This document shows positions 14,322 to 59,899 of a stretch of 64,000 nucleotides of DNA, in pieces (position 1 is the first letter of the stretch; the number at the start of each line of letters is the position of its first letter). The notes below the pieces were generated by a model that ran no database searches, was not told where the DNA came from, and saw only the letters and a program-made list of their open reading frames with translations. The translations under genes and the position numbers were made by a program. This DNA comes from Candidatus Versatilivorator sp. (GTDB lineage: Bacteria > Acidobacteriota > Terriglobia > Versatilivoradales > Versatilivoraceae), in assembly GCA_965207735.1 (NCBI GenBank), contig OZ242296.1, positions 2,752,001-2,816,000 on the forward strand. Direction: 5' to 3'.

Positions 14322-17300
14322 GACGGACCGAAGCCGACGGAAGACCGGCCACGGCGCGCGGGCGGGGCTGTAGAATCCGGAGGCTCAGGCGCAGCGATCC
14401 ACCATGGCAAGAGACTGGCAGTCACTGAACGAATATGCGCTCTTCTGCCGGGGGAGCCAGTGCTCAGAACGGAATGGACATGCGGATGCGGACCCCAGTG
14501 TTCGCGCCCCGGCTGCTTTTGCCTCGAGTGCCCTCCAGTTCCAGGTTCAACGGGTTAGTGTCGGGACTGGGGGGCTGAAGGTCGAACTCGCTTCCAACGC
14601 TTATTTCCTTCCCGTGTCCGGACCAGCGGAGACGGCTGAAGGGCGTCAGCAGTCCTCTTCCCCGTAGAACCTCAACGCCGTAGGCGCCTTCGCTTTCGAT
14701 CCTGTTCACGGAAACAGGATTTCCCGGTAAACTCCTTCCCCGGCCAGACGCATAGGCATAGTCCCACAAAGCCGCTCCACCTCCGCCATTTTGCCCATGG
14801 GAGGCGGCGGCTGACATCCGCAGACCCCGCCGCTTGTTTCCCGGATCCCAACTCGCCTGCAGTCCGCCTCCCCAGTCCTTGTAGCCCCCATCGTGAAGAA
14901 GCAGCATTCGACCTAGCAGGGCCAAGTCTAGACCGGTGGGGTTGTCGATGAAACCCAGGCGCAGACCGGTTTCGATGGCAGTACCGTGCACCGCTTCCCC
15001 TCGGTCCAGGCGCCCACCGAGCTCACCCTTCAGGCTGAAGGAACGTTTCCTGCCGCCGCGCTGGTGGACCACCTCCAGCATGGCCCGTGCTCGCGACGCG
15101 CTCCCATATACCTCACCAATGCGCTCATAAGAGTCGATCCCTATGTCGGACATGAATCCATCCAGACGAAATGCCAGCTCATTCTTGCCAGGCTTGGCCA
15201 GAAGGGAGCGCAGCCCCACGGTCCACATCCGGAATTCGGCATCGAAGACATGCGCCAGCCGGGGGTCCATGAGATCAACGGCGCCGCGTCCCGTGCCGCC
15301 GATCCCCCAAAGGCTGAGGCGGCGGTGCGGCTGCCAATATAGATAAGGATGGAGCGTGTTGAAACGGGCTGCCAGTCGCCCCTCACGATCGTCGCTATAA
15401 CTCATCTCACCCCAGCTTCGCGCAAAGGAAAGGCCGGCCAGCACCTGGCGGTTGGAAAAAAGATCCAACCCGACGTGGGTCGCTCTCAGTCCTCCTCGGA
15501 AGTCGACCCGGGAGCCGTTGCCGTTGAAGTGCTGGGAATCGCCATGGCCCCACAACACGGGTCTCCAGTAGCTTCCGCCGAATGAATTGCCTGCAAGAGG
15601 CAAGCCGAATGAAGTCCGAGAATGGACCGGTCCCTTCTCTGGTCCGCCGGAAGGATCGAATCCCGGTGAATGTTGGGATCGATCCTGATAAAAGGTGGGC
15701 ATCCACCAGCCCTGTTCCTGTTTCATGCGTTGCAACTGGCGCCGGCGTTCGAAACGGGATTCAACGGCTGTTTGAACGCTCTCCGCCAGCGCTCCTGACA
15801 TGGCAGACAAGAGAACCGGAAGTGTGTGGGTGAGTTCTTCGGCGGTGCGGTCGGTAATGGTAACCAGGAGCGGCCTGACGGAGATGCTCTTATAGTTTGG
15901 ATCGAGACTCGTGGCACTATGGCTGAACACTTCACTTTCATCCAGGGTATTGTCGTCGTCGAGAGTATCAAACCGCACGGTTTGAGCGATGTTCCAGTTG
16001 TCCCGGGTAAAGGTCACTTCATCCAAGGCGGCAACCAGCAACTGGGGGTTTGAGCTTGAGATTGCGACAGCCACGGCGGCCATAGGCCGAGAGAGCAGAA
16101 CGACGGTATAGGTCGCGGATTCCCCCTCCGGCACGCTCATGTGCGGATTGGGCACGATCTTGACTCCGGCAGCGTCATCGTCGGTAATATCGACCGAAAT
16201 GGCGGGAGCGGGAATCCCGTGGTAGGCAGCATCGGAACTGGTCGCTGCAAGAGTCAAAGTAGCGACCTCGTCGGTGGCATCCGCATCTTGGGCAATCGGC
16301 AACCTCACCTCGTGAGCAGTGGACCAGCTTGTGGGGCTGAAGGCCAGCGAGGCCGGCGATGGCGAGAGGTCGTTATTGTTGCTGCTCAGGGAGAGATGGA
16401 CCTCGGCAGAGGGCTCGCTTGCCAGCGCTACCGTGCAGGTCTTGAAGGTTCCCTCCAGAATGGTGAGTTCCAGAGGAGAGACGATCACCCCTGTAGTGTC
16501 GTCATCGATCACTGAAACCGAAACATCCGAGACGGTTAGACCGCTAAAGGCGCCGTCCATGCTGCTGGTTGAGTGGAGCAGGGTGGCGGTGTCGTCCATG
16601 GCGTCCGGATCCTGCAAGGTTTGAACGGTGACTGCCTGGGGTTCATTCCAATTTGACACGCTAAAGGTCAAAGAGTCGGGCTGGGTGACCGCGTCCTCAT
16701 CTCCGCGTCGGTCCACCTCAACCACGACGTCCTGAGTCGGCTTCGAGGTCAACACCACGGTGTATGTCCCGGAATCTCCCTCGTCAATAGCGAGGTTCAG
16801 GGGAGTGACAATTACACCCGCAGAATCAAGGTCGCCGACCGTGATCCGGACCGGGTCAACCGACGCCCCGTCATAGGTCGAATCGGAACTGCTGGCGGAG
16901 TGTCTCAAGGTAGCGACGTCGTCGACCGCATCCAGGTCCCGCGAGGCTTGAACCGTCACAGTACCTGGGTGATCCCATTCCGAAGGCTCAAACGTAACCT
17001 GTGCCACATCGGCAGATATGTCTGCATCGCCACTATGGCTAAGCGCGACGACAACCGGCTGGGATGGCCTCGATGTCAGCGCCACCGTATAGGTTGTGGA
17101 GGCATCCTCGGGCATTTCCAATCGGGTCGGCGTGACCTTCACTCGGGCGGTGTCATTGTCGCTGACCGTAATCCCAACCTCCTCTACGGGAATTCCCTGG
17201 TAGGTTGGGTCCGCACTGGCGGCGGAATGGTTGAACCGGGCCCTTTCGTCAAGCGCATCATCATCCTGTGCCGCCCGTGCTCTGATGGTTTGGGGGACGT

Positions 17301-17789
17301 TCCAGTCTACCGGGATGAAGGTCAGCGAGGCGGGCAACGGAGTCAGATCGCTGTTGTCACTATTTGCTGCCAGAACGACGGCGTGTGTGGGTTTGCTTGT
17401 CAGCACAACGGTGTAGGCTTTCGATGCCCCTTCAGGAATGGACAAGTTGGTGGGGGTTATCCTGACCCCGACACTGTCATCATCTCTGACAGAGATGCGG
17501 ACGGCTCTCAACATCAGGCCATCATAGGCTCCATCCGAGCTGATGGTTGAATGGGCCAGCATGGCGATGTCATCTGCCGCATCATCGTCGGAAGCAGCGT
17601 CCACGGCTACGGTCCGGGGTTGGTCCCAATTGGATCCGGTAAAGGTCAAGGTTCCTTGCCTGACGCTGATGTCCGGGTCCCCGCTGTGAGTGATGGTGAT
17701 GGTCACATCGTGGGAAGGTTGTGAAGTCAGAACTACCTGATAGCTGTCGCTGCCTCCCTCGGCAATAGTCAGCTTGGCCGGCAAGATCG

Positions 17790-20700
17790 ACACACGGGCG
17801 GTCTCGTCGTCGGTGACGCTCACGTCCACTTCTGAAATCCTGATTCCGTTGTAGTCCCCGTCGCTGCTGGTAACCGTGTGGCTGAATGTCGCCGTATCAT
17901 CTATGGCATCGTCATCTTGGGCTGCAGAGACTGTCACCATCTGCGCCATCTCCCAGTCGGAACCAGTGAAAGTCAACTCCTGGTCATCGATGCCAATGTC
18001 TCCATCCCCGCTACGACTGATAGTGATGGTCACGTCGTGGGAGGGCTCAGAGGTCAGGACCACCTCATAGCTGTCGCTGCTTCCTTCGGCAATGGTCAAT
18101 TGCGTTGGCCTGATCGACACACCCGCGGTCTCGTCATCGGTGACGGTCACGTCCACTTCCGCAGCCGTGATCCCGTTGTAGTCCCCATCGCCGCTGGTAA
18201 CCGTGTGGCTGAACGTCGCCGTATCGTCGACGGCATCGTCATCTTGGGCTGCAGAGACTGTCACCATCTGCGCCGTCGCCCAGTTGGAACCAGTGAAAGC
18301 CAACTCCTGGTCATCGATGCCAATGTCTCCATCCCCGCTGTGGGTGATGGTGACCGTTACTTCGTGGGTCGGTTGCGAGGTCAACACCACCTCATAGCTG
18401 TCACCGTCTCCTTCAGCGATGGTCAGTTGCGTTGGCGTGATCGAAACGCCCGCGGTCTCGTCATCGGTGACGGTCACGTCCACTTCCGCAACAGCGATAC
18501 CGCTGTAGTCCGAGTCGGTGCTGGAAACGCTGTGGCTGAACGTCGCCGTGTCATCGATGGCATCGTCGTCCTGGCCAGCGGAGACTGTCACCATCTGCGC
18601 CGTCGCCCAGTCGGAACCAGTGAAAGCCAACTCCTGGTCATCGATGCCAATGTCTCCATCCCCGCTGCGGGTGATGGTGACCGTTACTTCGTGGGTCGGT
18701 TGCGAGGTCAACACCACCTCATAGCTGTCACCGTCTCCTTCAGCAATGGTCAGTTGCGTCGGTGTAATTGACACGCCGGCGGTCTCATCGTCGGTAACGG
18801 TGACATCCACTCCCGAAACCGTGATCCCGTTGTAGTCTGTATCGTTGCTAGCAACGCTGTGGCTGAACGTCGCCGTGTCATCGATGGCATCGTCGTCCTG
18901 GCCAGCGGAGACTGTCACCATCTGCGCCGTCGCCCAGTCGGAACCAGTGAAAGCCAACTCCTGGTCATCGATGCCAATGTCTCCATCCCCGCTGCGGGTG
19001 ATGGTGACCGTTACTTCGTGGGTCGGTTGCGAGGTCAACACCACCTCATAGCTGTCACCGTCTCCTTCAGCGATGGTCAGTTGCGTTGGCGTGATCGAAA
19101 CGCCCGCGGTCTCGTCATCGGTGACGGTCACGTCCACTTCCGCAACAGCGATACCGCTGTAGTCCGAGTCGGTGCTGGAAACGCTGTGGCTGAACGTCGC
19201 CGTGTCATCGATGGCATCGTCGTCCTGGCCAGCGGAGACTGTCACCGTTTGCGCCGTCGCCCAGTCGGAACCAGTGAAAGCCAACTCCTGGTCATCGATG
19301 CCAATGTCTCCATCCCCGCTGCGGGTGATGGTGACCGTTACTTCGTGGGTCGGTTGCGAGGTCAACACCACCTCATAGCTGTCACCGTCTCCTTCAGCGA
19401 TGGTCAGTTGCGTTGGCGTGATCGAAACGCCCGCGGTCTCGTCATCGGTGACGGTCACGTCCACTTCCGCAACAGCGATACCGCTGTAGTCCGAGTCGGT
19501 GCTGGAAACGCTGTGGCTGAACGTCGCCGTGTCATCGATGGCATCGTCGTCTTGGCCAGCAGAGACTGTCACCATCTGCGCCGTCGCCCAGTCGGAACCA
19601 GTGAAAGCCAACTCCTGGTCATCGATGCCAATGTCTCCATCCCCGCTGCGGGTGATGGTGACCGTTACTTCGTGGGTCGGTTGCGAGGTCAACACCACCT
19701 CATAGCTGTCACCGTCTCCTTCAGCAATGGTCAGTTGCGTCGGTGTAATTGACACGCCGGCGGTCTCATCGTCGGTAACGGTGACATCCACTCCCGAAAC
19801 CGTGATCCCGTTGTAGTCTGTATCGTTGCTAGCAACGCTGTGGCTGAACGTCGCCGTGTCATCGATGGCATCGTCGTCCTGGCCAGCGGAGACTGTCACC
19901 GTTTGCGCCGTCGCCCAGTCGGAACCAGTGAAAGCCAACTCCTGGTCATCGATGCCAATGTCTCCATCCCCGCTGCGGGTGATGGTGACCGTTACTTCGT
20001 GGGTCGGTTGCGAGGTCAACACCACCTCATAGCTGTCACCGTCTCCTTCAGCGATGGTCAGTTGCGTTGGCGTGATCGAAACGCCCGCGGTCTCGTCATC
20101 GGTGACGGTCACGTCCACTTCCGCAACAGCGATACCGCTGTAGTCCGAGTCGGTGCTGGAAACGCTGTGGCTGAACGTCGCCGTGTCATCGATGGCGTCG
20201 TCATCTTGGGCCGCAGAAACCGTCACCGTCTGCGCTTGGTTCCAGTCGGAGTCACTGAAGGTCAGCTCCGGATCATCTAGGCTGATGTCCGCATCCCCGA
20301 TGCGGGTGATGGTGATGGTCACGTCGTGGGCGGGCTCGGAGGTCAGGACTACCTCGTAGCTGTCGTTGCTTCCTTCGGCAATGGTCAATTGCGTTGGCCT
20401 GATCGACACACCGGCGGTCTAGTCATCGGTGACGGTCACGTCCACTTCCGCAGCCGTGATCCCGTTGTAGTCCCCATCGCCGCTGGTAACCGTGTGGCTG
20501 AACGTCGCCGTATCGTCGACGGCATCGTCATCTTGGGCTGCAGAGACTGTCACCATCTGCGCCGTCGCCCAGTTGGAACCAGTGAAAGCCAACTCCTGGT
20601 CATCGATGCCAATGTCTCCATCCCCGCTGTGGGTGATGGTGACCGCTACTTCGTGGGTCGGTTGCGAGGTCAACACCACCTCATAGCTGTCACCGTCTCC

Positions 20701-21400
20701 TTCAGCGATGGTCAGTTGCGTTGGCGTGATCGAAACGCCCGCGGTCTCGTCATCGGTGACGGTCACGTCCACTTCCGCAACAGCGATACCGCTGTAGTCC
20801 GAGTCGGTGCTGGAAACGCTGTGGCTGAACGTCGCCGTGTCATCGATGGCATCGTCGTCCTGGCCAGCGGAGACTGTCACCATCTGCGCCGTCGCCCAGT
20901 CGGAACCAGTGAAAGCCAACTCCTGGTCATCGATGCCAATGTCTCCATCCCCGCTGCGGGTGATGGTGACCGTTACTTCGTGGGTAGGTTGCGAGGTCAA
21001 CACCACCTCATAGCTGTCACCGTGCCCTTCAGCGATGGTCAGTTGCGTTGGCGTGATTGACACGCCCGCAGTCTCATCGTCGGTGACGGTGACGTCCACA
21101 TCCGAAACCGTGATCCCGTTGTAGTCCGCATCGTTGCTAGCAACGGTGTGGCTGAGCGTGGCCATATCATCGATGGCGTCGTCGTCATGTGAGGCCGAGA
21201 CTGTCACCGCCTGCGTTTGGCTCCAATCAGAGTCACTGAAGGTCAACTCCTGGTCATCGATGCTGATGTCCTGGTCCCCGCTGTGGGTGATGGTGATCGT
21301 CACATCGTGGGACGGCTTCGAGGTCAGTACGACATCGTAGCTGTCGCTGCCTCCTTCGGCAATGGTCAGCCGCGTTGGCGCGATTGACACGCCGGCCGAA
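17790..21400 (-). repeat. About 11 near-identical 327-bp (109-aa) tandem coding repeats, followed by about 6 diverged copies toward the C-terminus
   Basis: Unit GVSITPTQLTIAEGDGDSYEVVLTSQP...VDVTVTDDETA; shadow ORFs recur every 327 bp (18518, 18845, 19172, 19499, 19826, 20153). Confidence 0.95.
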
Positions 21401-22409
21401 TCGTCATCGGTCAGATTCACGGAGAGCGGGGCGCTGTCCCGATAGCCATCGGCGCCGGCGATGAGTCTTATTTCCTCGGCGCCCTCGACAACAGAGTCAT
21501 CGACAACGGTCAACTCCGCTTCACCGGAGGTTGCCCCGCTTTCAATGGTCAGCATGGCTACCGTATAGTCGGTTTCGTTGGCAGCCCGACCTGAATGAGT
21601 CAGGTTGATGGTCAGGTCATCGACCGGCTCTTCGCCGCTGGCAACGGCAGCAGTGACCGTAGCTGTCCCGTCCGGCTCCGAAACACTGGTCTGATCGCTT
21701 GCGAGGGTGATTGCTGGCAGCGGTGGCGGCTCGTCGTTGTCACGGATGTTCACGGACACGCCGGAGATGGATATGCCGGAACAACCCTCGTCGGTACTGG
21801 ATGCCGTGTGGGCGATGGTTGCCCTGCCGTCGGAAGCATCGTCATCCTCACCTGCCTCCATCGTTACCCGTTGGGAAATATGCCAGTTCGCGGTGGTGAA
21901 GGTAAGAGAGGGTCTGTCTGCCGACAGGCTGGGGTCGCCTGTCAGGTCGAGCGTGATGGTAACGCTTGCCGAAGGGCTTGTGGCTAATACCACGTCGTAG
22001 TAGGCGCCATTGCTGTCCCCCTCATCGATGGTGAGACGGGTGGGCGTGACGGTTGCTCCGCAGCCGTCGGTATCGTCGTCGGCAACATTGACCGTGACGC
22101 CAACGGCAGCACCGCCATAGGACGAGGGAGGGGTATTGGTAATCCTTGCCTGCCCGGTTGCCGTACCCGATTGTTCGTCCGCGAAGACCTGAACGGGTTG
22201 ATCCCTGTTCCAGTCGGTCGTAGTGAAGGTGAGGGAGGATGTGTTTTTTTTCACCCTTGAGTCTCCTCCGGATTCGATGTCTACCGCGACGGTGACATCA
22301 CCGCTCGGCCTCGTTTTCAGCCTTACGTTATAGGTCTCTCCGGTAGTTCCCTCAGTAATATTGAGCGTCGTGGGTGTGACGGAGAGACCCGGGCTAGAGG
22401 CTCGGCTTC

Positions 22410-24625
22410 TAACGGTGACGCGAACGGTGTCAGTCACAGCGCGATTGCCGCTATAGCCCGGGTTCGAGGCCGTGAGGGTGTAGGTTGTGCCTTGGCCGGG
22501 GCTCACCTTGGTGTCTCCGGATTCGTCATCAAAGGACACCAAGCCGACTCCCTGGTCAATGGAGACATTGGTGGCGTGGGTCGTGGTCCATTTCAGGCTG
22601 GAATCTTCACCTTCATCGATGGTCGAAGGCGACGCGGTAAAACTGTCTACGCTCGGTCGGCTCCAAACGGTGACCGAGACAGTGGCGGTGGCTGCATCGG
22701 CGCCGGTATAGGCCGGATTCGAGGCCATAAGCCTGTAGCTCGTACTCCTGGAGGTTTCGGCTGTAGACGGTTGAGGAGGAGTGACACTTCGCCCTCCTTT
22801 GGAACTGTCAAGCGGAACCGTCCCGATTCCCTGGTTGATGGAGGTGCCGGAAGCATGGCTGGTAGCCCAGATCAGCCTGGTGGATTGCTGCTTTCCAAGG
22901 GTCGAGGAGTCGGCACTGAAACGACCCACGTGTGGCGGTCGCCAAACGGTAATGGTGACGCTGCAGGTGCCGGGATTGCCTCCACCCGAGGCGGTAAACC
23001 GGTAGGTTGTGGATCTGGAGGTTTCAGCCGCTCCAGGCGGAGGCGGTGTAACGGTCCTGCCTCCCGCGGGGCTGTCAAGTGGAACCGTCCCAACACCTTG
23101 ATTGATCGTGACGCTATCGGCGTTAGTGCTGTCCCAACTCAGGGTCGAAGAGCCGCCAAGTTGGATGTTGGTGTCGCCGGCCCCGCAGGCAATGGTCGTC
23201 GCCGCGACGGTTACTGAGGTGCTGTTCAGGTCGTAGCCGTCATAGCGGGAATCGCTACTGTCCACGTCATAGGTAATGGTAGTGCTCCCGACTCTCTGCC
23301 CGGTCACTTTGAAAGCCTGCGCCGTGTTCCAGTTTCCGGTACTGAAGCTCTTTGATCCGGTTACCGTAGCGGTACCGGTGGTCTGGCTGGATGCGTCAAT
23401 GGCTACGGTACCAGTGGGTTGACTACTCAGCCGCGGGCTATAGTAGGTCTTGGTCTGACCGACGAGTACCCTTGTATGCGATGGGGGTTGGGTGATTCCG
23501 GCCGGGGGCTGCGGGACCGTCACCACGTTAACAGCGACGCGAACGGTGTCGGTCGCCGCGCGAGCGCCGCTATAGCCCGGATTCGAGGCCGTGAGGGTGT
23601 AGGTTGTGCCTTGATCGGGGGCAACCGTGGTGTTTCCGGATTCGTCATCAACGGACACCGAGCCGACTCCCTGGTCAATGGAGACATTGGTGGCGTGGGT
23701 CGTGGTCCATTTCAGGCTGGAATTTTCACCTTCATTGATGGTCGAAGGCGACGCGGTGAAACTGTCCACGCTCGGTCGGTTCCAAACAGTGACCGAAACA
23801 GTGGCAGTGGCTGCATCGGCGCCGGAATAGGCCGGATTCGAAGCCGTCAGCCTGTAGCTCGTACTCTTGGAGGTTTCGGCTGTAGACGGTTGAGGAGGAG
23901 TTGCACTCCGACCTCCTTCGGAACTGTCAAGCGGAACCGTCCCGATTCCCTGGTTGATGGAGGCGCCGGAAGCATGGCTGGTAGCCCAGGTCAGCCTGGT
24001 TGTCTGCTGCTCTCTCAGAGTTGCGGGATCGGCGCTGAAACGATCCACGCTCGGCGGCCGCCAAACGGTCAACGTTACGCTGCAGGTGCCGGGATTGCCT
24101 CCACCAGCGGCGGTAAACCGGTAGGTTGTGGACCTGGAGGTTTCAGCCGCTCCAGGCTGAGGAGGTGTAACGGTCCTGCCTCCCACCGGGCTGTCTACCG
24201 GAACCGACCCAACACCTTGGTCAATGGTAACGCTATCGGCGTTAGTGCTGTCCCAACTCAGAGTTGTGGAGCCGCCAAGTTGGATGTTGGTGTCGCCGGC
24301 CCCGCAGGTAATGGAAGTCGCCGCAACGGTTACCGAGGTGCTGTTCAGGTCGTAGCCGTCATAGCGAGAATCGCTACTGCCCACGTCATGAGTGATGGTA
24401 GTGCTCCCTACGCTCTTCCCGGTCACTTTGAAAGCCTGTGCCGTGTTCCAGTTTCCGGTACTGAAGCTCTTTGATCCGGTTACCGTACCGGTACCGGTGG
24501 TCTGGCTGGATGCGTTAATGGTTACGGTGCCGGTGGGTCGACTACTCAGCCGCGGGCTGTAGTAGGTCTTGGTCTGACCGACGAGTACGCTTGTATGCGA
24601 TGGGGGCCGGGTGATTCCGGCTGGC
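22410..24625 (-). repeat. Two-copy ~1,119-bp (373-aa) tandem duplication in the adhesin N-terminal half
   Basis: PAGIT[RQ]PPSHT.VLVGQTKTYYSPRLSS...TDTVRV occurs twice; gtgattccgg at 23492 and 24611. Confidence 0.9.
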
Positions 24626-27756: not shown

Positions 27757-28292
27757 TAGTGATAATGCGTTCCTTCTCGGGCAACAAGCCGATCAGAGCA
27801 TTGAGGAGAGTCGTTTTTCCGCTCCCGGTCCCTCCTGAAACAAGGATGTTCTGACGCGCCCGCAGCGTGTTCGCGGCTTCATACAGAATCTCTTTAGCCA
27901 ATACCCCCTGGCGTATCAGATCGTCCGTCGAGAAAGACCGCCCCCCAAAACGCCTTACTGTGATCGCTACAATCGGACTGGCTGGAGGCATGCAGATCGC
28001 CACCCGGGAACCATCGTCCAGGCGGGCATCCACCAGGGGCGAGAGAGCAGGGTCCAGACCAAGGGGACGAGCAATATGGATGGCGGCCCGCCCCAAGGCT
28101 TTGGAATCGAGGTCCGGTGCCGGCCAAGGATCCACTTTCCCATCCTTCTCGATCCAGACGTTGCCCGGCCCGTTAATCATTATTTCGCTGACCTGCTGAT
28201 CCTCAAGCACCTTCTCCAGTCCCGGCAACAGAGGCTTGAGCATTTCGATTCCACTGGCGTTCATGGTGTTACATCCCTTGTTTGTTCCGTTG

Positions 28293-28952
28293 TCATTCCG
28301 ATATCAGAGCCCGGTCCGCCTGCAGGTATGTGATGACGATGCCCATCGGGTTGTAAACCATCAAATCAGGGGGGATTCGGCTGATATGGGAAAATTGCAG
28401 GGAAAGAGACCACTTTTCTCGCCCCACTTCCTTTTCCTGCCGGATGCGCACCATTTCAAAGTCGGCAGTCGCTCCATGGGGCGGCGACCGATTGGCATGG
28501 ATACGCAGTACGATGTTCTCGACTTTGGTCTCTTCCGGAGCCGCCCGAGCCGCCACTAGCGCAATATTCCTGTTTTCGTCCTGGAATGCGGCATTGGCCA
28601 GGTCGGTGGTCAGAAAGCGCAGGCTGCGGGTCCAGCGTTGCTGTACCGTGGCGGCCCGGCGGGAGTAGTGGTCGTGGATGAAGCGATTCAAGAAGTACTT
28701 GGTGGTAGGATCGAGAGGGTCGGATTTGGCCTCGACTGCCTTGTATTGCAGAGCTTCGGCCCGGCCAACCTCGTCCACGCGCACCACGATAGGGCGGGGC
28801 ATCTCCCGAAAACCCAGGCGCACCACTACCACCGCCAGCAACAGGGTGAGTCCGCCAAGCCCCAAGGAGAGAAGGCGCAGGTGACGATTGGAGCTCACGG
28901 TTTCGCCCCAGATTTCAGCGTATTCACGGTCCGTGTCTTTGGAGGGCATCAT
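28293..28952 (-). CDS. VirB8/TrbF family T4SS inner-membrane protein
   Basis: N-terminal TM, PIVVRVDEVGRA, C-terminal NPMGIVITY. Confidence 0.85.
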   Translation of the reverse strand: MMPSKDTDREYAEIWGETVSSNRHLRLLSLGLGGLTLLLAVVVVRLGFREMPRPIVVRVDEVGRAEALQYKAVEAKSDPLDPTTKYFLNRFIHDHYSRRAATVQQRWTRSLRFLTTDLANAAFQDENRNIALVAARAAPEETKVENIVLRIHANRSPPHGATADFEMVRIRQEKEVGREKWSLSLQFSHISRIPPDLMVYNPMGIVITYLQADRALISE

Positions 28953-29941
28953 CGCCTGGAAACAGCTCTCGATTGACTCCTGGCAGCTTTACCGGCCCGA
29001 TGGACGGTCGCGGAAAAACTCCCGGATCCAGTGAAGCCAGTTCCTGAAATCAGTAGCGAAGCCATCTCTCCCACTTTGCAGGCCGCCAGGATTCCGGCGG
29101 CGCAAAGAGGGAGGAGAATCAGCGACCAGTAAACGACCGCGGCAAAGTTGTCCAGGGGCGGTGAATGGCTGAAAGTCGTGACATAGCCTAGACCAACGCC
29201 GCCCCATATTCGAAGGATGGCTCCCGCGATTGCAGCGTATAGAGAATAGGTGAGCACCGTCCGAAACCACCCCCAGAACAGGAATGCCATTGGTTCGAAT
29301 ACCAGCCAGGGGATGAATATGGGGCCGAGCAGAATAGAGATGGACACGGCCAAGTGCCCCCAGAGAACTTGTGCATAGGTGATGAAGAACAGGGCCATCA
29401 GGAGTAGGCCGAAAAAGACGAATGCTACCGATGGAATTGCCTGTGTGACTGCGGCATATGCCGTGGAGGGTGACAGATCGTTGAAATCGATCTGCTGCCA
29501 TGCCGCCAGAATAGCGCTACCCTGCTGGGTGAACAGGTAGTTGAGTTCAGTGTGCATCCCGGAGACGATGTCGGAGACAAACATGTTCTGCAGCCAGATC
29601 CCTTGTTCCACCACGATCTGAGGAAAAGTAGAGGTGGTGTGAGGCAGAGTCTGAGTGTAGTAGTGGAGCATGGTCTTGGGAATACTCAGAACGATGACGA
29701 GCTTCACGATCTCCCAGGGATTGAAGGTGCCGCTGAAGGCTGCCTGCAATCCGGCCCAGCTCACCGCAATGGTGGCAATTGCCAACCACAATTCGTCGCC
29801 CGCCTGGATAATGCTGGGCGAAGCCGCACCCACAGCGTCATCCAACACCCTGTCGAGGAATACCTTGAAATTCTGTTGCTGTTCCTCGGGGATAATCGCC
29901 GGAACATTGGGGTCGATCGATTGTGGCGGACGGAGCTGCAT
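28949..29941 (-). CDS. VirB6/TrbL family T4SS membrane protein
   Basis: Polytopic; LLGPIFIPWLVFEPMAFLFWGW motif; operon position. Confidence 0.85.
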   Translation of the reverse strand: MQLRPPQSIDPNVPAIIPEEQQQNFKVFLDRVLDDAVGAASPSIIQAGDELWLAIATIAVSWAGLQAAFSGTFNPWEIVKLVIVLSIPKTMLHYYTQTLPHTTSTFPQIVVEQGIWLQNMFVSDIVSGMHTELNYLFTQQGSAILAAWQQIDFNDLSPSTAYAAVTQAIPSVAFVFFGLLLMALFFITYAQVLWGHLAVSISILLGPIFIPWLVFEPMAFLFWGWFRTVLTYSLYAAIAGAILRIWGGVGLGYVTTFSHSPPLDNFAAVVYWSLILLPLCAAGILAACKVGEMASLLISGTGFTGSGSFSATVHRAGKAARSQSRAVSRR

Positions 29942-29953
29942 AGGATCGAGTCC

Positions 29954-30862
29954 TTACTGTGAACCGCCAAAGGCGGAAGGAATCCGGTAGACCAAGCCTT
30001 CCCGCAGTACCTCGGCGCTGGCGGCAATGTCCGCCTGCTGCTTTTCGAAGAGAGCCTTCCCTGCCTCCTGACGCCGCTGCCACTGCTTCCATTGCTGACG
30101 CCGCGTGAGTTCGTCCTGGTAATCTCGAGCGGCTTCCCGGGCAGCCTGAAAGGCCATCAACTGCGCCATGGAGGATAGAAGCTCGCCTTGGGTCGCTAGA
30201 CCTGTCACCTGGGCCTGAGCCAGGGCGGTGTCCGAGACATTGGTGTTGGACCGCAGTTTCCGGAGAGACTCTTGCGCGCTGGTGGTGGTTTCGATCAAGG
30301 CCGTTGCCGAGTCGTCAACCAGGTAGGTGGTCACGCGCTGCTTGTCGGCTTTTTCCTGTTCCTGGCGGTATTGATCCGAAACCTGGGCCGCCACTTGGGG
30401 ATCCAGATGGCTCAATAGCTCAACGATGTCTTCCTGGTTGGTTTGATATTGATTCAGGATCCTCCTCCAGCTTTCCCTCAACGGTTTGCCGGAGGACAGC
30501 TTTTTGGCAGCGGCAACCAACTCTCTGGCCGACCCGGTGAATTCCGTCTGCCACTGCATCGCCTCGACCACCAGGTCAGTGGGACCCGCAACCAGCTCTG
30601 CGAAAGACTCCTCGAGAGCTCCGATCCGTCCCAATGCAGCCTCCTTCATGTGGGTGATCTGTTCCTTCGTCTTGGTGAGTTGTTCGGTGAAGTGCTTGAT
30701 TTGGGTGACTTGGTTGACGATTTGCATTCTCTCGTTCAGTCTTTGAAGGATCTGGTTGGCGATCATCTGGGCTCGTTGGGCGGCCGCAACGGGGTCAATA
30801 CTGTAGAGGGGGGCGGCGCAGAGGCTGACGAGCAGCACCAGGGATACGATTGTCTTTTTCAT
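29954..30862 (-). CDS. VirB5/TrbJ-like secreted coiled-coil protein
   Basis: Signal peptide MKKTIVSLVLLVSLCAAP; Gln-rich helical body; directly upstream of virB6. Confidence 0.6.
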   Translation of the reverse strand: MKKTIVSLVLLVSLCAAPLYSIDPVAAAQRAQMIANQILQRLNERMQIVNQVTQIKHFTEQLTKTKEQITHMKEAALGRIGALEESFAELVAGPTDLVVEAMQWQTEFTGSARELVAAAKKLSSGKPLRESWRRILNQYQTNQEDIVELLSHLDPQVAAQVSDQYRQEQEKADKQRVTTYLVDDSATALIETTTSAQESLRKLRSNTNVSDTALAQAQVTGLATQGELLSSMAQLMAFQAAREAARDYQDELTRRQQWKQWQRRQEAGKALFEKQQADIAASAEVLREGLVYRIPSAFGGSQ

Positions 30863-32189: not shown

Positions 32190-32197
32190 GGTTCTTG

Positions 32198-33058
32198 CTA
32201 CGGCTGTAGTCCCGCATCCACAAACCGCCACTTGGCTCTATTCTTCCCTATGGCAAGCCAGCCATCACCCAAGACGTGCCGTACCACATAGAGTCCATCT
32301 TGGCTGAGGTCGTAGGACACCAAGCTGGGCGATCCATCCTTTAACTCGTATAGCGCCGGGGCTTCCTGTGCCCGACAGCGCAGATAGGTGAATTGACCAT
32401 CGTGCCAAAGGGCCTCTACCAGGAACGGCCGCTCAAATGCCCGCTTCTCGAGACGGTACGGCCACTTCAAGCGAGCCGGATAGGCAGAGCGAAATTGGTC
32501 GATTGTCTTGGTTGCCTCTTGCTTTGCCTCGTTAACCCGGGCTTCCGCATGAGTCTTGGCGGCCAGCGCGGCCTCGTTTGCTTGCCGAGCCGCGTGCTGG
32601 TATCCCTCTACCATGTTGCGGGAAACGAACGCCGGCTTGTGCGGCGACTCGGCAGCACGGCCGGCCCCACCTGCGATTCTTTCGATTCGAACCACGAGGT
32701 GAGGAGACTCGGCGCCTTCGCTCGCCAGAAAGGCGTATATCCGACCGCTGGCGCAAACCAGCGTCACGTTGGTGCGCACACCTGTAGCGATGGGTTTGAG
32801 GTAGGCCAGGTTGGCGGCCCCGCTAAGGTGCCAATAGTCGGAGTCGCCGACCACGAAGTCCAGGATGTTCTCCGTCTTCGGGAGAACCAGCACGGTCGTA
32901 TGTCGAATCTTGGCCCGGATCTCGATAATCTGATCCTGCCGTTCCTTGATTCGAAGCACGCCACTTGCGGTGGCGACGCCTGACAGCAACGTCCAGCAGA
33001 CCACCACGAACGCGACGGTTGGAGCCGTGACTCTCCTGGGAAGCCTTGCATTCACCAT
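32198..33058 (-). CDS. virB9: VirB9/TrbG family T4SS core protein
   Basis: Signal peptide, FVVGDSDYW, YLKP, WHDGQFTY, PALYE. Confidence 0.88.
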   Translation of the reverse strand: MVNARLPRRVTAPTVAFVVVCWTLLSGVATASGVLRIKERQDQIIEIRAKIRHTTVLVLPKTENILDFVVGDSDYWHLSGAANLAYLKPIATGVRTNVTLVCASGRIYAFLASEGAESPHLVVRIERIAGGAGRAAESPHKPAFVSRNMVEGYQHAARQANEAALAAKTHAEARVNEAKQEATKTIDQFRSAYPARLKWPYRLEKRAFERPFLVEALWHDGQFTYLRCRAQEAPALYELKDGSPSLVSYDLSQDGLYVVRHVLGDGWLAIGKNRAKWRFVDAGLQP

Positions 33059-33918
33059 GCCACCCCCTCGGACAACCGTTCAATGCCCTGTTCCAACCCG
33101 AATCGCTTGATGAATTCTCCCCGCTTTTCCGCATCCGGCGGCGAGGAGGTATAGAGCCAATAGCTCTTTGGATCCACGTTTAGCCGCAGCACTCCGGTTG
33201 ATTTGGGGCGCCTCAGGTAGAGCTCCCTCTTGGGAACCAGTTCTCTGATGAGTTCAAGCTCCCGTTCATTGAGCCGAAACACCTGGCCGGCCTGAGACGG
33301 CAAATCCGGGTTGGCCAGAAATATCTTGGTCGGCATGGACTCCAGCAGTGCTTCGGCGCCTGCCGTTCCGGTGATATCCACTGCCGACTGGGTGGCCATG
33401 ACCAGGGCCGCATTGCGCTTGCGCCAGGTTTTTGCAGATTCGGCCAAATAAGCCACAACGGCGGGGTCGCGCAGATAACGCCAGGCCTCGTCCACTACCA
33501 TGAGCTTCACCCGGGCGATGTCGGCGGGGTCTTCCAGCTCCAGGCGCAGGCGCTCCAGCAGGTAGAACAGGGCTGCTTCGCAGAGGTCTTCATGTTCCGC
33601 CGCTCCGGCCAGATCGATGACCTGCCAGTCTTTCAGATCGAGATCCGCCCCGGCGGCGGAGTGGTCGAAATAGCCCGCCCAAGCTCCATCGCCGTGCCAG
33701 CGCGACATTGCCGGCCACATCTTGCTGGGAAGGGCTCGCACCAGGGCGCCTAATGTGCGCCGTTCCGGAGAAAACAGATAGAGGTCCTGGATGCGGCTGC
33801 GAATTTCGTTGGTATCGTCACCTTCCACCGTCCACCCGCCCAGTCGCAACAGGCGAACCATCCAACCCGTGAGGAATTGATAGGTCCGCTCGGTGGGAGG
33901 CAGGGAAAACGGCCTTAG

Positions 33919-35616
33919 CCCGCATTTCTCACCAGAGTTCGCACAGGAGCGGTAAAAGGGGCCATGGAGGCATTTGAGGCCGAGTTTAACAACGTTGGTG
34001 GCTGGATCGGTAGGCAAAGGCCAACAGCGGAGGCTTCTGAGGCTCTCCGAGGAACCTCAGGCGGCATTTTCCCTCGAAAACAGCGACACCTCTGCCATCG
34101 GGCCTGGTGGCCGCGTCTTCAAGGGCCAGGAGTGACGGTCGGGTCAGGGCACCTCAGGGCGGCAGGTGAGCCCAAGCGATGCGGAACTCCCTCTGGTAAG
34201 GACATCCGGAAGCCATGGCGACCTTGATGCGACGGACCGAGATGGTGACCTGAGCGCCGATCTTGAGCAGTTTGAGTCTGATGGAACCGACGGTGGCCCG
34301 GGCCAGGCAGGTGGATTGCAGCGCCCGCCGGCGCAAGCCCTCCACCAGCACATAGGCGAAAGAGGTCATCAGGAGCCGGAGCTGATTCGCCCGGAAGGAG
34401 TGGGTGGAGGTGCGATCGGCAAACAGGTCGAGTTGCTGCTCCTTGATGCGGTTTTCCATCTCACCGCGGGCACAGTAGATCTTCTCATAGAGGAACTGGG
34501 CGGGGTAGTCCTGGACCGACAGAGAGGTGACGACGAAGCGGGGGTTGGGGCCGCGGGGCAGGACCTCGGCTTTGGCGACCAGGCGGCGCTCGTGGGACCA
34601 GCTCTTGTGAGTGCGGTAGGAGAGGTCGGTGAAGATCCGGGCGGGCTGCTGTTGCTGGTCTGAGAGGGCCTGGGCCTGAGCCAACTCGGGGGCGATGGCG
34701 TCTTGGAGGCGGGAGTTGCGGGCCAGGCCGAAGAGATAGTCGACCTGATGCTGCTCACACCACCCCATCAGCTCCTCACGGGCAAAGCCGGAGTCGGCCC
34801 GCAGCAGGATCTTGACCTGAGGCCAGACACGCCGTAGGCGGGAGACGATGCGCTGGACCTGCTCCAGAGCGCCGGCGGAGGCATCGATGTTGGCGGGTCT
34901 GAGCAGGGCCGAGAGCAGATGGCGGCCCGAGAAGATGTAGAGGGGCAGGTAGCAGTAGCCTCGGTAGTAGCCGTGGAAGAAGCGGTCCTCTTGTTCCCCG
35001 TGGAGGGGATCGTCAGTGGCGTCGAGGTCGAGGATGATCTCATCGGGGGGTTGGGGATGGGCTTGCAGAAACAGTTTCACCAGGAGGGCTTGCAAGGCCT
35101 CGGGGTCGTGGTCAATCTTGTGGTAGCGGGTGGGGCCTTGGGTGGGGGCGTGTTCGAGTCGGTTGAGGGTGCTCTTGCCTGCCAGGGGAGGCGAGTCGCC
35201 ACGACGGCCTTTCTCTGAAAACAAGGCCATGAGGGGATCGTGACGGAGTTGGTCGTGGTCGATGAGATCCTCGTAGCCGAGGGCGATGCCACGGATGCGC
35301 TGAGCGATGAGGGTGCGCAGGCTGTATTGGGTCCGCTTGGGGTCGCGGTGATCGGTGAAACAGTCGGCCACCTGGTCGGAGAGAGATAAGCCCCGATCCA
35401 CCCGGCGCAACAGCAGGGAGCCGGCATCGGAAGTGATGGGACCGCCGTCGAAATCAGCCACCACGCGGCGGCGGCCGTGGGGTTCAAACTCCAGGGGTTT
35501 GGTGTTACACTGTGTCGGCATCGGTTCTCCTTTAAGAATCTGGTTAACTCCTTAGACAAGAGTATTTTACCAGATTCCGAGAACCGATGCTTCCTACCTC
35601 TGGTGAGAAATGCGGG
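33919..35616 (-). mobile_element. IS1380 family insertion sequence, 1,698 bp
   Basis: Perfect 19-bp IR CCCGCATTTCTCACCAGAG; TTAG duplicated at 33915-33918 and 35617-35620. Confidence 0.95.
34154..35521 (-). CDS. IS1380 family transposase
   Basis: FDGGPITSDAG, GYEDLIDH, LDLDATDDPLHG, RADSGF, RGEMENRIKE. Confidence 0.95.
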   Translation of the reverse strand: MPTQCNTKPLEFEPHGRRRVVADFDGGPITSDAGSLLLRRVDRGLSLSDQVADCFTDHRDPKRTQYSLRTLIAQRIRGIALGYEDLIDHDQLRHDPLMALFSEKGRRGDSPPLAGKSTLNRLEHAPTQGPTRYHKIDHDPEALQALLVKLFLQAHPQPPDEIILDLDATDDPLHGEQEDRFFHGYYRGYCYLPLYIFSGRHLLSALLRPANIDASAGALEQVQRIVSRLRRVWPQVKILLRADSGFAREELMGWCEQHQVDYLFGLARNSRLQDAIAPELAQAQALSDQQQQPARIFTDLSYRTHKSWSHERRLVAKAEVLPRGPNPRFVVTSLSVQDYPAQFLYEKIYCARGEMENRIKEQQLDLFADRTSTHSFRANQLRLLMTSFAYVLVEGLRRRALQSTCLARATVGSIRLKLLKIGAQVTISVRRIKVAMASGCPYQREFRIAWAHLPP

Positions 35617-37183
35617 TTAGCTGAAAGTCAGGATTAAGCGCTCCGGAGGGAGCCATCTCCAGGTAGCTTCCCCCCAGGAAGGCCGTAAGCCAACGGTAGG
35701 ACCCACCCAGGTCGAGTATCAAGACCCTGGGATGGTACTGAAGCGCCGAGACCAGCAGGAAGTTCAGAAGGAACGACTTGCCGCTTCCGGTCGCCCCGAG
35801 CACCAGCGTGTGACCCACGTCACCGGCAAAGAGGTCAAAGTGATAGGGGGTATTCCAACGGGTTTCGAGAACCGCCAGCGCCGGGCGTTGCAGGTGCCTG
35901 CTGGTCGAGAGTCCGACGGGAGGGCCGAAGACGGGAGCCAGACAGGCGGCCAGACCGGCGGAGCTGAACAGGGTGCGAACCTGACGCTTCCTGGGCTGAG
36001 CCGGCCAGCGGCAGAACCAGGCGGGCAGCTGTCCGTACCCCTCCCGGATGACTTTGGCGTCGTGGGATGAGAAGATTCGCCGCACATCGCCGTCCAGGAG
36101 TTCGATTTTCTCCAGGTCTCCGTGCAGCGCAATACAGAGCGCCATTTCGCCATAGGCAATCCCGTCGGCTTCGAGCTCTACCAGCGCTTCGCCGAGCCGC
36201 TCGGATTCGACGTCGGCGGCCGAGTCGACCATGGCCGTATCCGTTCCCTCTTTCTCCTGCATGTGAGCTGCCAGGGAGTAGCGCTTGGCGAAATAGTGCC
36301 GGCGGGCCGATCGAATTCTTTTGCGAGCCTGGTCCAACTCGAGGGGCCTCCATTCCAGGGAGGCCGTCAGAGTGGCGTCCAGGCAGTAGAGATCGTTGAG
36401 CAGATTGGCCGAGGCTTCGCCGGGAGGGGACAGCAGGGAGTAGAGAATGACCGGCTCGCCATCCAGGCGCAGATGGCGGCGTTCCGCCTCCAGTTCGGAA
36501 AGGGCCAAACGCCAATTCAGCCCGCTTCCGGTTGCCCCGTCCCAGGGGATACCGGGACGGTTGATCAACTCGCTCAACAGGCGCGATCCGGCCTCGGGAG
36601 GCAGCAGCTCAATGGGAGTGAGATCGTTCACCAGCGCCCGATGGGCTTGAACGAGCTGACGAAATCGATCGGCAGCGGTTTGAATGGAGGAATAGAGGTA
36701 GGCCGATTCAGGGGTTCTCCCCCGGCGAGCCAGCCAACTGCGGGCGTAGGACATCCAGCCGAAATCCCGATTGGCGGCAGACCTCAACTGCGGGTCATGG
36801 CACCATACCAGGAAGGTCTGCATCTCCCGGACTCGACTCGCCAGGAACAGGCGTCTCTGATGCTGGGAAAGCTTGCCGATGTCGCTGCCGAGCTGCCGGG
36901 TCTCTTTCAACCGACTGGGCCGGCGAAGGAGATAGAAGTAAAGCCGGGTACGCGGACCCACGTCGGAAAGCAACCGCTGCCAGCGGTCCAGTACCCGATC
37001 CAACTGCTCGGGCCGTCGTCCGTCGATTTCCATGGGCGCCAACCGGCCAACGGTCAGAAGCTCACCGGCGCGCGTGAGGCAGGTTTGCGCGTCCGGCAGC
37101 CACCCCCAATAGGGGATCTCTTCGGCGAGCGCTCCCGATCTGTCGTAGTCCCAGGTTTCAGCACTCATGTTCATCGAGGTCAC

Positions 37184-37477
37184 CTACCGGAGATCCAGAT
37201 ACCAGGGCGATTCGGTCCACTTGCCGGGGTCATACCGCACTTTGAACCGGGCTGCTTCCCGCAACAGGCTCAGCATATTGGGATCCTGCTTCCAGGCCAG
37301 CCGGCCGCTGGCAAGCAGCAATGCCAGGACGAAGACCGCCGCCAGAAGGGAGTCACTGGCATTCCAAAGCGCCACTGCCAGCGTGGCGCTCAAGAGAAAC
37401 CAGCGCCGTTCCACACCCAGAATCATCAGCGGCCGGCTCAACACCGGATAACCGTTCCATCGACGTTTTCCAGTCAT
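37184..37477 (-). CDS. virB3: VirB3 family protein
   Basis: LSRPLMILGVER, two TM segments, KQDP motif; directly upstream of virB4. Confidence 0.82.
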   Translation of the reverse strand: MTGKRRWNGYPVLSRPLMILGVERRWFLLSATLAVALWNASDSLLAAVFVLALLLASGRLAWKQDPNMLSLLREAARFKVRYDPGKWTESPWYLDLR

Positions 37478-37484
37478 TTCGCGG

Positions 37485-37811
37485 TCACACCCCGAACAGC
37501 CATTTCATGAAGTTGGCAGCCCCCAGTGCCATGCCCAGCCCGAAAATGGTGCCGGCCATGGCTCGCTTGGATCCGCCTTCACCGTAAGCGAACATCAGGC
37601 CTCCAACCACAATGGCGATGAGTGACAACCCCTTCGCCAACGGCCCTGTAAACGTTTTTGCCAGCTCGTCGACAGCCATGACCCACGGGCTTGTTCCGGT
37701 CCCTTGAGCCAGCAGGACACTCTCTTGAAGCAGTAGCAGCAGCGTTGGGAGCCCCCGGCGAAAAGGGGCGCAATTGGACACAACACGGCACACACCGGAG
37801 ACAGTCGGCAT
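37485..37811 (-). CDS. virB2: VirB2/TrbC pilin
   Basis: Long signal, SPW...FTGPLAKGLSLIAIVVGGLMFAYGEG; GGAGG RBS. Confidence 0.9.
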   Translation of the reverse strand: MPTVSGVCRVVSNCAPFRRGLPTLLLLLQESVLLAQGTGTSPWVMAVDELAKTFTGPLAKGLSLIAIVVGGLMFAYGEGGSKRAMAGTIFGLGMALGAANFMKWLFGV

Positions 37812-38045
37812 AACGACCTCCGCCGTTCTCTTTCGGCAAGATCTGGTTTGGAAACTGTAGATTGCTGCTCGGAGGGAGTGAGTGGAACTTACAATGACTC
37901 TCTACGGGATTGCAACCAAAATTTTCGGGCCGGCCCTTCTTTGCCTAACCCATCGTTATCAAGGCTTCCGACTTCACGTTTATCTTCAACACGTTACAAA
38001 ACAAGGAACGCGCAAGTGGCACTACAAGCGCGCTGAAGCCCGGGC

Positions 38046-59769: not shown

Positions 59770-59899
59770 ATGAAAATCGTTGCCGCGGGGGACCCTGCAC
59801 CGAGGGGAGGTGGGAAGCAATCGGGCCGTCGGCACGGTTCCCATGGTGGCGGGACTCAAGGACGGAAGGATCCTGGCCATCTATAGCGTGGGTCCGAAT
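59770..59899 (+). pseudogene. Frameshifted 5' fragment homologous to the Asp-box gene at 61812
   Basis: MKIVA(+1)GTLHRGEVGSNRAVGTVPMVAGLKDGRILAIY versus MKIVARGTLHQGEVGSNRAVGTFPMVLGLKDGRVLATY. Confidence 0.85.

What the first reader, a model, noticed from the sequence alone, without database searches (positions are those of the whole stretch)
14464..37811. Compact VirB T4SS with no coupling protein or relaxase, directly followed by a giant adhesin
Seen: virB2-B3-B4-B9-B10-B5-B6-B8-B11, then after ~425 bp a co-oriented ~10.9-kb adhesin gene. No virD4, relaxase, virB1, integrase or att repeats are visible, and both flanks are ordinary metabolic genes. Established: conjugation needs a T4CP and relaxase, while T4CP-less VirB systems serve adhesion (Bartonella Trw), periplasmic substrate export (Bordetella Ptl) or DNA uptake (Helicobacter ComB). 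Inference: a domesticated contact/adhesion module, or an ICE remnant whose adhesin stabilises mating pairs. The adhesin has its own Sec signal and barrel, so it is probably not a T4SS substrate.
Basis: partly seen in the sequence, partly recalled or inferred. Interest (0 to 1): 0.7.

Follow-up and report, generated by a model that had tools for sequence, protein, structure and literature searches.

The report
Tamed conjugation machine beside giant adhesin
A genus of likely sponge-dwelling Acidobacteria keeps, at one fixed chromosomal site and under purifying selection, a mating-channel gene set that has lost its DNA-transfer genes and sits in front of a giant surface protein, so it likely works as an attachment device; this genome's own copy is broken.

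Summary
The gene order and the lack of virD4/relaxase are confirmed, but this genome's copy is broken: IS elements split virB4 and virB11, and the adhesin frame has an internal TAG (unverified in reads). The module is a genus-wide fixture. 12 of 13 same-genus genomes carry one orthologue (VirB8 85-96%). virB4 is intact in 10 of 10 and virB11 in 11 of 11 relatives where covered; dN/dS is 0.08-0.26. A giant autotransporter-like gene follows virB11 in 11 of 11. The clade nests inside a mobile-element (ICE) family in which 66 of 69 loci carry VirD4 after virB8; one relative keeps a 64-codon virD4 scar there. Four closed or near-closed genomes have the module but no coupling protein was found. Domestication is therefore well supported. 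Function is inferred: most likely a Trw-like adhesive pilus working beside the adhesin (about 0.5); periplasmic export, DNA uptake and in-trans mobilisation remain open. No expression data. Eight literature searches found no description, but the genus paper was not in the library. The scan earlier noted a similar coupling-protein-less system in an unrelated bacterium (not checked here).

The parts
37886..37915 (-). sigma70-like promoter candidate (TTGCAA, 18 nt, TAAGTT) upstream of virB2
   Evidence: seen by eye in 9 of 10 relatives' upstream sequences, with a variant in G011; untested
37485..37811 (-). virB2 pilin
   Evidence: PF04956 E 4e-14; dN/dS 0.12
37184..37477 (-). virB3
   Evidence: PF05101 E 2e-9
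35617..37183 (-). virB4 ATPase, 5' part (Walker A)
   Evidence: TIGR00929; one 804-809-aa gene with Walker A and B in 10 of 10 relatives covered
33919..35616 (-). IS1380 insertion splitting virB4
   Evidence: NF033539 E 6e-123; 19 copies >=99% identical in the genome, 4-bp target duplication; contigs of runs X3 and X14 join across it and one X7 contig spans it
33052..33918 (-). virB4 ATPase, 3' part (Walker B)
   Evidence: TIGR00929 E 1e-41
32198..33058 (-). virB9
   Evidence: PF03524, TIGR02781
30795..32189 (-). virB10 (likely ATG at 32189; the ORF is open from 32231)
   Evidence: PF03743 E 3e-40
29954..30862 (-). virB5/TrbJ-like protein, single copy
   Evidence: position, N-terminal hydrophobic stretch, helical model; 6 of 49 homologues hit TIGR02791 weakly; fold search inconclusive
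28949..29941 (-). virB6
   Evidence: PF04610 E 4e-11
28293..28952 (-). virB8
   Evidence: PF04335 E 1e-15; 85-96% orthologue in 12 of 13 same-genus genomes
28265..28292 (-). spacer where related ICEs carry a 315-aa ORF plus virD4 (about 3.3 kb): inferred deletion site
   Evidence: G011 keeps VirD4 residues 615-678 (52% identity) here
27757..28264 (-). virB11 ATPase, 5' part
   Evidence: TIGR02788
26270..27756 (-). IS5/IS1182-like insertion splitting virB11
   Evidence: PF01609, NF033551 below cut-off; 43 copies >=99% identical; X3, X7 and X14 contigs join across it
25799..26269 (-). virB11 ATPase, 3' part
   Evidence: PF00437 E 1e-25
25375..25635 (-). conserved non-coding leader of the adhesin, with two invariant CTCCCTC boxes
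   Evidence: aligned in 11 genomes, also where the adhesin coding sequence differs; covariation term about zero; no credible Rfam hit; no promoter- or terminator-like site
14464..25374 (-). giant autotransporter-like adhesin gene (3,636 codons): predicted Sec signal, Ig/Calx-beta-like passenger with about a dozen 109-aa tandem repeats
   Evidence: single ORFs of 2,031-3,972 aa in 7 relatives
20419..20421 (-). in-frame TAG in the adhesin
   Evidence: not covered by contigs
14467..15786 (-). C-terminal helix plus beta-barrel domain, autotransporter-like, with extra C-terminal strands
   Evidence: AlphaFold mean pLDDT 78; Foldseek top hits are EspP, Hbp, EstA and BrkA barrels, best E 3e-9; 26 of 60 aligned homologues hit PF03797

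Best explanation
The ancestor of this Acidobacteria genus captured the VirB operon of a mobile element, lost the coupling protein and relaxase, and kept the rest under purifying selection in front of a giant autotransporter-like gene, where it likely builds a non-conjugative pilus or contact structure that would act with that adhesin in attachment. Shown: fixed site, single copy, selection, nesting in the ICE family, virD4 scar, no coupling protein found in four closed or near-closed genomes, barrel fold of the adhesin. Inferred: VirB4 and VirB11 power assembly of VirB2 pilin with a VirB5-like tip; the adhesin exports itself by Sec and its own barrel, so it would be a partner, not a substrate; the two may be co-transcribed. 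The adhesin, not the pilin, is the part that varies between species. In this genome the module is recently inactivated.
For: One VirB8 orthologue at 85-96% in 12 of 13 same-genus genomes, apart from ~60% ICE copies. Same order, virB8 abutting virB11 and a giant ORF next in 11 of 11 relatives with sequence there; the Nramp/SSF block lies downstream wherever contigs reach it. dN/dS 0.08-0.26 for all nine genes; pooled 0.148 against 0.175 for flanking and 0.201 for core genes in the same 7 genomes. Walker motifs intact. dS follows core-gene dS (Spearman 0.82 over 45 non-independent pairs), and deep branching matches the core tree. The clade is monophyletic (support 1.0) inside VirD4-bearing lineages (54 loci with full VirB4 used). 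69 of 69 other loci have the 315-aa ORF after virB8; 66 have VirD4 hits and 62 cover more than 80% of it. VirD4 scar in G011. No full VirD4, PF02534 or PF12696 match in G002, G004, G008, G013; their PF10412 hits are only the VirB4 Walker A; no match to the ICE relaxase-like ORF, PF03432 or PF08751 there. VirB11 and a VirB5-slot gene are kept, as in Trw; ComB lacks both and Ptl lacks VirB5 (PMC12857230 section 20). G001 lacks both the virB genes and the orthologous adhesin; this genome has lesions in both.
Against: No expression, pilus or binding data; no RNA run is listed. VirB2 and VirB5 are single-copy, and no sliding window exceeds dN/dS 0.37, unlike Trw's variable multicopy pilins. The VirB5 assignment is weak. 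The adhesin link could be mere inherited adjacency: this genome has 3 paralogous barrel-ended giants with no virB nearby, the barrel family is large (3,436 clusters), and G005 and G010 show frameshifted adhesins beside intact virB genes (possibly assembly errors). One deletion could explain G001's double loss; G001 also has a full SCO1-like gene where G011 has only its 3' part, so G001 may instead show the ancestral empty site. The module is dispensable in at least 2 of 14 genomes. Shallow branches of the virB and core trees disagree. No VirB1 or VirB7 was recognised (the related ICE operons show no room for them either).
Confidence: 0.5

Rival explanations
1. Ptl/Brucella-like exporter: the machine moves proteins without a coupling protein, for example Sec-exported proteins picked up in the periplasm, to the surface or into host cells; the adhesin secures contact or is only a neighbour.
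For: Coupling-protein-less T4SSs of Bordetella and Brucella do this (PMC12857230 section 20). The channel genes virB6, 8, 9 and 10 are as conserved as the pilus genes. The genome is rich in giant secreted-type proteins.
Against: No substrate gene is linked except the adhesin, which has its own barrel. Channel genes are needed for pilus assembly too (recalled), so their conservation does not discriminate. Ptl lacks VirB5, while a VirB5-slot gene is kept here.
Confidence: 0.22
2. DNA-uptake or recipient-side machine (ComB-like): the structure pulls in DNA, or helps the cell receive mobile elements, and hands it to ComEC.
For: ComEC (PF03772) is present in 5 of 5 genomes tested. The shallow discordance between virB and core trees fits a recombining lineage.
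Against: ComB lacks VirB11 and VirB5; both slots are filled here. ComEC is also present in G001, which lacks the module, and in 10 of 14 control genomes. No competence gene is linked.
Confidence: 0.1
3. Helper for conjugation in trans: the host keeps the channel so that coupling proteins and relaxases of transient ICEs or small integrative elements can use it.
For: Full ICE-type VirD4 occurs in 6 of 14 genus genomes, and partial or fragmentary copies in 2 more. This genome also has a stand-alone PF03432 relaxase hit and 5 small integrase + 315-aa-ORF units.
Against: Four closed or near-closed genomes keep an intact, selected module with no coupling protein found. The ICEs bring their own VirB set. 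It does not explain the fixed link to an adhesin.
Confidence: 0.1
4. Slowly decaying ICE remnant with no function, and a chance neighbour of an adhesin.
For: True of this genome's copy today (two IS insertions and one stop); the module is absent from G001.
Against: No internal break in virB4 (10 of 10) or virB11 (11 of 11) in relatives at dS 0.4-1.2; dN/dS at or below that of core genes.
Confidence: 0.03

Closest known systems
Bartonella Trw T4SS
   Same: Derived from a conjugation system, lacks a VirD4-like coupling protein, and is proposed to act as an adhesive pilus (PMC12857230 section 20, read whole; PMC2695021, passages).
   Different: Trw has multiple sequence-variable virB2 and virB5 copies; here both are single-copy and conserved, and the variable part is a separate giant autotransporter-like gene. 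Different phylum and parent element; Trw descends from an R388-like system.
Bordetella Ptl and Brucella VirB
   Same: VirB-type systems without a coupling protein (PMC12857230 section 20).
   Different: They export known toxin or effector substrates; Ptl lacks VirB5. No substrate is identified here.
Helicobacter pylori ComB
   Same: Chromosomal, no coupling protein; ComEC is present in the genome.
   Different: ComB lacks VirB11 and VirB5; this module keeps VirB11 with intact Walker motifs and a VirB5-slot gene.
Parent family: VirB/MPF-T-like ICEs of Acidobacteriota, Gemmatimonadota and some Gammaproteobacteria (complete copy at G000:C1 ~1.84-1.86 Mb)
   Same: Same nine virB genes in the same order, 40-70% identity.
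   Different: The ICEs carry a 315-aa ORF and virD4 between virB8 and virB11, and commonly ArdC and a Replic_Relax-like ORF; none of 69 has an adhesin hit directly after virB11.
Classical (type Va) autotransporters such as EspP, EstA, BrkA
   Same: N-terminal signal, passenger, then helix plus C-terminal beta-barrel with the same fold.
   Different: The passenger is Ig/Calx-beta-like repeats; the model has about five extra strands after the barrel-matching part; the window's own domain has no Pfam hit.

Membership tests
VirB-type (MPF-T-like) T4SS | VirB4 ATPase plus at least three class-specific VirB components nearby | tested here: met
   VirB2, 3, 4, 6, 8, 9, 10, 11 by Pfam/NCBIfam; criterion as in PMC4027160 (passage); CONJscan's own profiles were not run
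Conjugative ICE | Coupling protein (VirD4/TrwB/TcpA) | tested here: not met
   Absent at the locus in 12 of 12 module copies examined (scar only in G011); none found genome-wide in 4 closed or near-closed relatives
Conjugative ICE | Relaxase and integrase linked to the transfer genes | tested here: not met
   No hit to the ICE's integrase, relaxase-like ORF, RepB or ArdC in the fetched regions; negative in four relatives; the PF13814 search was uninformative because nothing rang, even in controls
Bartonella Trw-type adhesion T4SS | No coupling protein, VirB11 kept | tested here: met
Bartonella Trw-type adhesion T4SS | Multiple sequence-variable virB2 and virB5 copies | tested here: not met
   Single copies; dN/dS 0.12 and 0.18
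Bartonella Trw-type adhesion T4SS | Pilus-dependent binding to host cells | not testable with these tools
   needs experiment
Helicobacter ComB | VirB11 and VirB5 absent | tested here: not met
   virB11 intact in 11 of 11 relatives; VirB5-slot gene present
Bordetella Ptl / Brucella VirB | Identified protein substrate exported without a coupling protein | not testable with these tools
   no linked substrate other than the self-exporting adhesin
Type Va autotransporter (the adhesin) | C-terminal autotransporter beta-barrel preceded by a helix | tested here: met
   (predicted model, best E 3e-9)
Type Va autotransporter (the adhesin) | N-terminal Sec signal peptide | tested here: inconclusive
   basic-hydrophobic-AxA pattern seen by eye in the translations; no predictor run
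VirB5/TrbJ (29954-30862) | VirB5 profile or fold | tested here: inconclusive
   6 of 49 homologues weak TIGR02791, 4 of 49 TrbJ_Ti; model pLDDT 51, no fold match

The most novel reading that the evidence does not exclude
A symbiont lineage turned a conjugation machine into a two-part host- or partner-attachment organelle: a conserved, coupling-protein-free VirB pilus co-expressed with a swappable giant autotransporter cassette, where the cassette rather than the pilin sets specificity. It would be the first such system in Acidobacteriota, with the mobile ancestor still circulating in the same genomes and the virD4 deletion caught as a scar.
Probability: 0.35. Interest if true: 0.8.

Novelty: new variant of a known kind. 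Interest (0 to 1): 0.62.

Why it matters
The coupling-protein-less type IV systems covered by the 2025 review section read here are four, all in animal pathogens, and whether they build pili is listed there as open. This is an independent case in an uncultured lineage of another phylum, where the steps can be read from genomes: the ICE parent, the virD4 scar, fixation, long purifying selection, exchange of the adjacent adhesin, and recent losses. Near-identical machines with and without VirD4 give a matched pair for asking what a T4SS does once DNA transfer is gone, and a candidate attachment mechanism for sponge symbionts.

Tried and rejected
No RNA holder was listed. The adhesin TAG could not be checked: contigs stop two bases short. 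The VirB5 fold was low-confidence with no match. The leader as a structured RNA: covariation term about zero, 3 of 46 pairs with a two-sided change, only a chance-level Rfam hit; not claimed. A shared CTCCCTC box in the virB2 and adhesin leaders as a sign of co-regulation: absent from G011's virB2 leader; dropped. Two distant Acidobacteriaceae loci with virB8 abutting virB11 (G397, G309) looked like independent cases, but genes read by eye as a TrwB-like coupling protein and a TrwC-like relaxase follow virB11 (recognised from recall, no profile run); rejected. A 400-genome phylum sample gave no VirB8 above 67% outside the genus; of 33 loci checked, 20 had the 315-aa ORF or the relaxase-like ORF next and the rest were too distant or too short to classify. 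The PF13814 search was uninformative. The first maximum-likelihood run timed out after the core tree; the virB trees are FastTree. dN/dS is Nei-Gojobori pairwise, with no branch or site model; for this genome only the 5' parts of virB4 and virB11 entered. Literature searches that showed no description of this system: 0 papers hold the genus name; listings and abstract starts only; the genus description and its supplements could not be seen. No complex prediction was run, since known VirB pairs would pass by likeness to solved structures.
Full report
What is in the window. Nine virB-type genes run on the minus strand from 37811 to 25799 in the order B2-B3-B4-B9-B10-B5-like-B6-B8-B11. There is no coupling protein or relaxase among them, and virB8 sits about 30 bp from virB11. 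After 425 bp a 3,636-codon frame (25374-14464) encodes a repeat protein with a signal-peptide-like start and a C-terminal domain whose predicted structure matches autotransporter barrels (pLDDT 78; best Foldseek E 3e-9). 26 of 60 aligned homologues hit the Pfam autotransporter model. This copy is broken in three places. An IS1380 splits virB4, an IS5/IS1182-like element splits virB11, and the adhesin has an in-frame TAG. The two IS types have 19 and 43 near-identical copies in the genome, a recent burst; two hits in an 8.9-kb operon have a naive Poisson chance of 0.005, which ignores that essential genes exclude insertions. Contigs of the best-matching run break at both IS ends, while three other runs carry close strains without them. 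The TAG could not be verified.

Who carries it. Four of the 11 closest named records are titled Candidatus Versatilivorator and one Ca. Versatilivoraceae; the rest are titled Terriglobia or Acidobacteria. Two runs labelled sponge metagenome hold contigs of 6-7 kb at about 93-94% identity over the operon; that the genus was described from sponges is recalled, not read. VirB8 has one 85-96% orthologue in 12 of 13 other same-genus genomes. In the 11 whose loci were fetched, the order is the same wherever contigs reach, virB4 is one gene with Walker A and B in 10 of 10 covered, virB11 is intact in 11 of 11 (8 residues shorter in G007), and a giant ORF follows. The twelfth, G003, has virB8 abutting virB11 on a 3-kb contig with an assembly gap in virB11 and an 83% barrel orthologue on another contig. 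The adhesin is one ORF in 7 relatives, frameshifted in 2 and cut by contig ends in 2. Its sequence varies strongly: G006, G008 and G010 carry a type whose barrel is 35% identical where aligned, G011 has a different N-terminus, and lengths run from 2,031 to 3,972 aa, while a ~260-nt leader stays alignable. The site is fixed between a BNR-repeat gene and the Nramp/SSF block; the 22-kb block upstream in this window is peculiar to this genome. G001 has the flanks but neither virB genes nor the orthologous adhesin. It is sister to G011 in the core tree (bootstrap 99), which favours loss, though it has a full SCO1-like gene where G011 has only a part.

Where it came from. The same genome holds a second operon at about 60% identity inside a complete ICE with integrase, primase-like gene, a 315-aa ORF and VirD4 between virB8 and virB11, RepB, ArdC and a Replic_Relax-like ORF (weak, E 0.002). 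Among the best 80 of 340 VirB8 loci in the species-level genome collection, 11 are the module; all 69 others have the 315-aa ORF right after virB8, 66 have VirD4 hits, and none has an adhesin hit directly after virB11 (flanks were limited to 10 kb and some loci are short). The module forms one clade (support 1.0) nested among these lineages. G011 keeps 64 codons matching the C-terminus of VirD4 (52% identity) exactly between virB8 and virB11. So the coupling protein was deleted from an ICE-type ancestor. Four closed or near-closed genomes with an intact module gave no full VirD4, no PF02534 or PF12696 match, and no match to three relaxase queries; other relaxase families were not searched.

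Is it maintained. Pairwise dN/dS is 0.08-0.26 per gene at dS of about 0.4, and 0.06-0.21 against G011 at dS 1.0-2.3. On the same seven genomes it is 0.148, against 0.175 for flanking and 0.201 for core genes. dS broadly tracks core-gene dS, and the two deepest splits match the core tree; shallower branches differ, which suggests some recombination or poor resolution. A dead remnant would not behave this way.

How it likely works. What was lost is the substrate-recruiting and DNA-processing part; what was kept is pilin, a VirB5-slot protein, both assembly ATPases and the envelope channel. That a coupling protein is not needed for pilus assembly is recalled knowledge; the 2025 review states that systems lacking it can elaborate adhesive pili, export proteins or take up DNA (PMC12857230, section 20 read whole). 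This gene set is closest to Bartonella Trw, since ComB lacks VirB11 and VirB5 and Ptl lacks VirB5. With the constant position ahead of a surface adhesin and no terminator-like site between them, attachment is the most likely role (0.5). It is not a Trw member: pilin and tip genes are single and conserved. The adhesin has its own export route and stand-alone paralogues, so it is not a likely substrate, and its link to the operon may be inherited position only. Protein export (0.22), DNA uptake (0.10), in-trans mobilisation (0.10) and neutral decay (0.03) are the rivals.

Novelty. Coupling-protein-less VirB systems are a known kind (also PMC4793230 and PMC4027160, passages seen; PMC3297438 and PMC2695021, passages). 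'Acidobacter' does not occur in the review's text, and eight searches showed no description of this locus, but the genus paper is not in the library. The scan had earlier noted a comparable system in an unrelated bacterium and a truncated member of the parent ICE family; neither is support. Verdict: a real, genus-wide domesticated T4SS with a traceable origin, a new variant of a known kind, function untested, and inactivated in this particular genome.

Noticed in passing
G000:C1, e.g. 2144383-2158959, 2015394-2028122, 3984999-3996776, 289975-299646: At least 14 giant ORFs (1,700-4,900 aa) end in the same ~30-residue C-terminal motif (…NPF(L/I)(A/T)YGV(V/I)NDGG…SGDGA…), many with signal-peptide-like starts; possibly a shared sorting or anchoring domain.
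   Followed up: no
G000:C1 near 1017166, 2493248, 2881345, 4566402, 5053983: Five ~2.8-kb units of integrase plus a paralogue of the ICE's uncharacterised 315-aa ORF (77-92% identical to each other, no virB or virD4), plus many fragments: possible satellite elements of this ICE family.
   Followed up: partly
G000:C1 ~1839588-1881000 (L001-L003): Complete ICE of the parent family, followed by large genes that look like helicase/methylase defence cargo; the cargo was not profiled.
   Followed up: partly
window ~37930-60000: A ~22-kb block of core genes (rapZ, hpf, rpoN-like, lptB, a 743-aa LptC/LptA-like gene, recJ-like, tRNA-Met) lies between virB2 and its usual neighbours only in this genome; a 5' fragment of the BNR gene sits near 59770.
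   Followed up: partly
whole genome: Recent IS burst: 43 copies of the IS in virB11 and 19 of the IS1380 at >=99% identity; an IS110-family transposase lies at window 56206-57600.
   Followed up: partly
G000:C1 300815-318205, 3362141-3378487, 2377783-2384406: Three stand-alone paralogous barrel-ended giant proteins (5,797, 5,449 and 2,208 codons, stop to stop).
   Followed up: no
virB11-adhesin spacer of G006, G008, G010, G013: Short remnants resembling the IS1380 terminal repeat occur in the spacer, seen by eye.
   Followed up: no
G000:C1:1121877-1122152: Stand-alone PF03432 relaxase hit in a 540-codon frame, context not examined.
   Followed up: no
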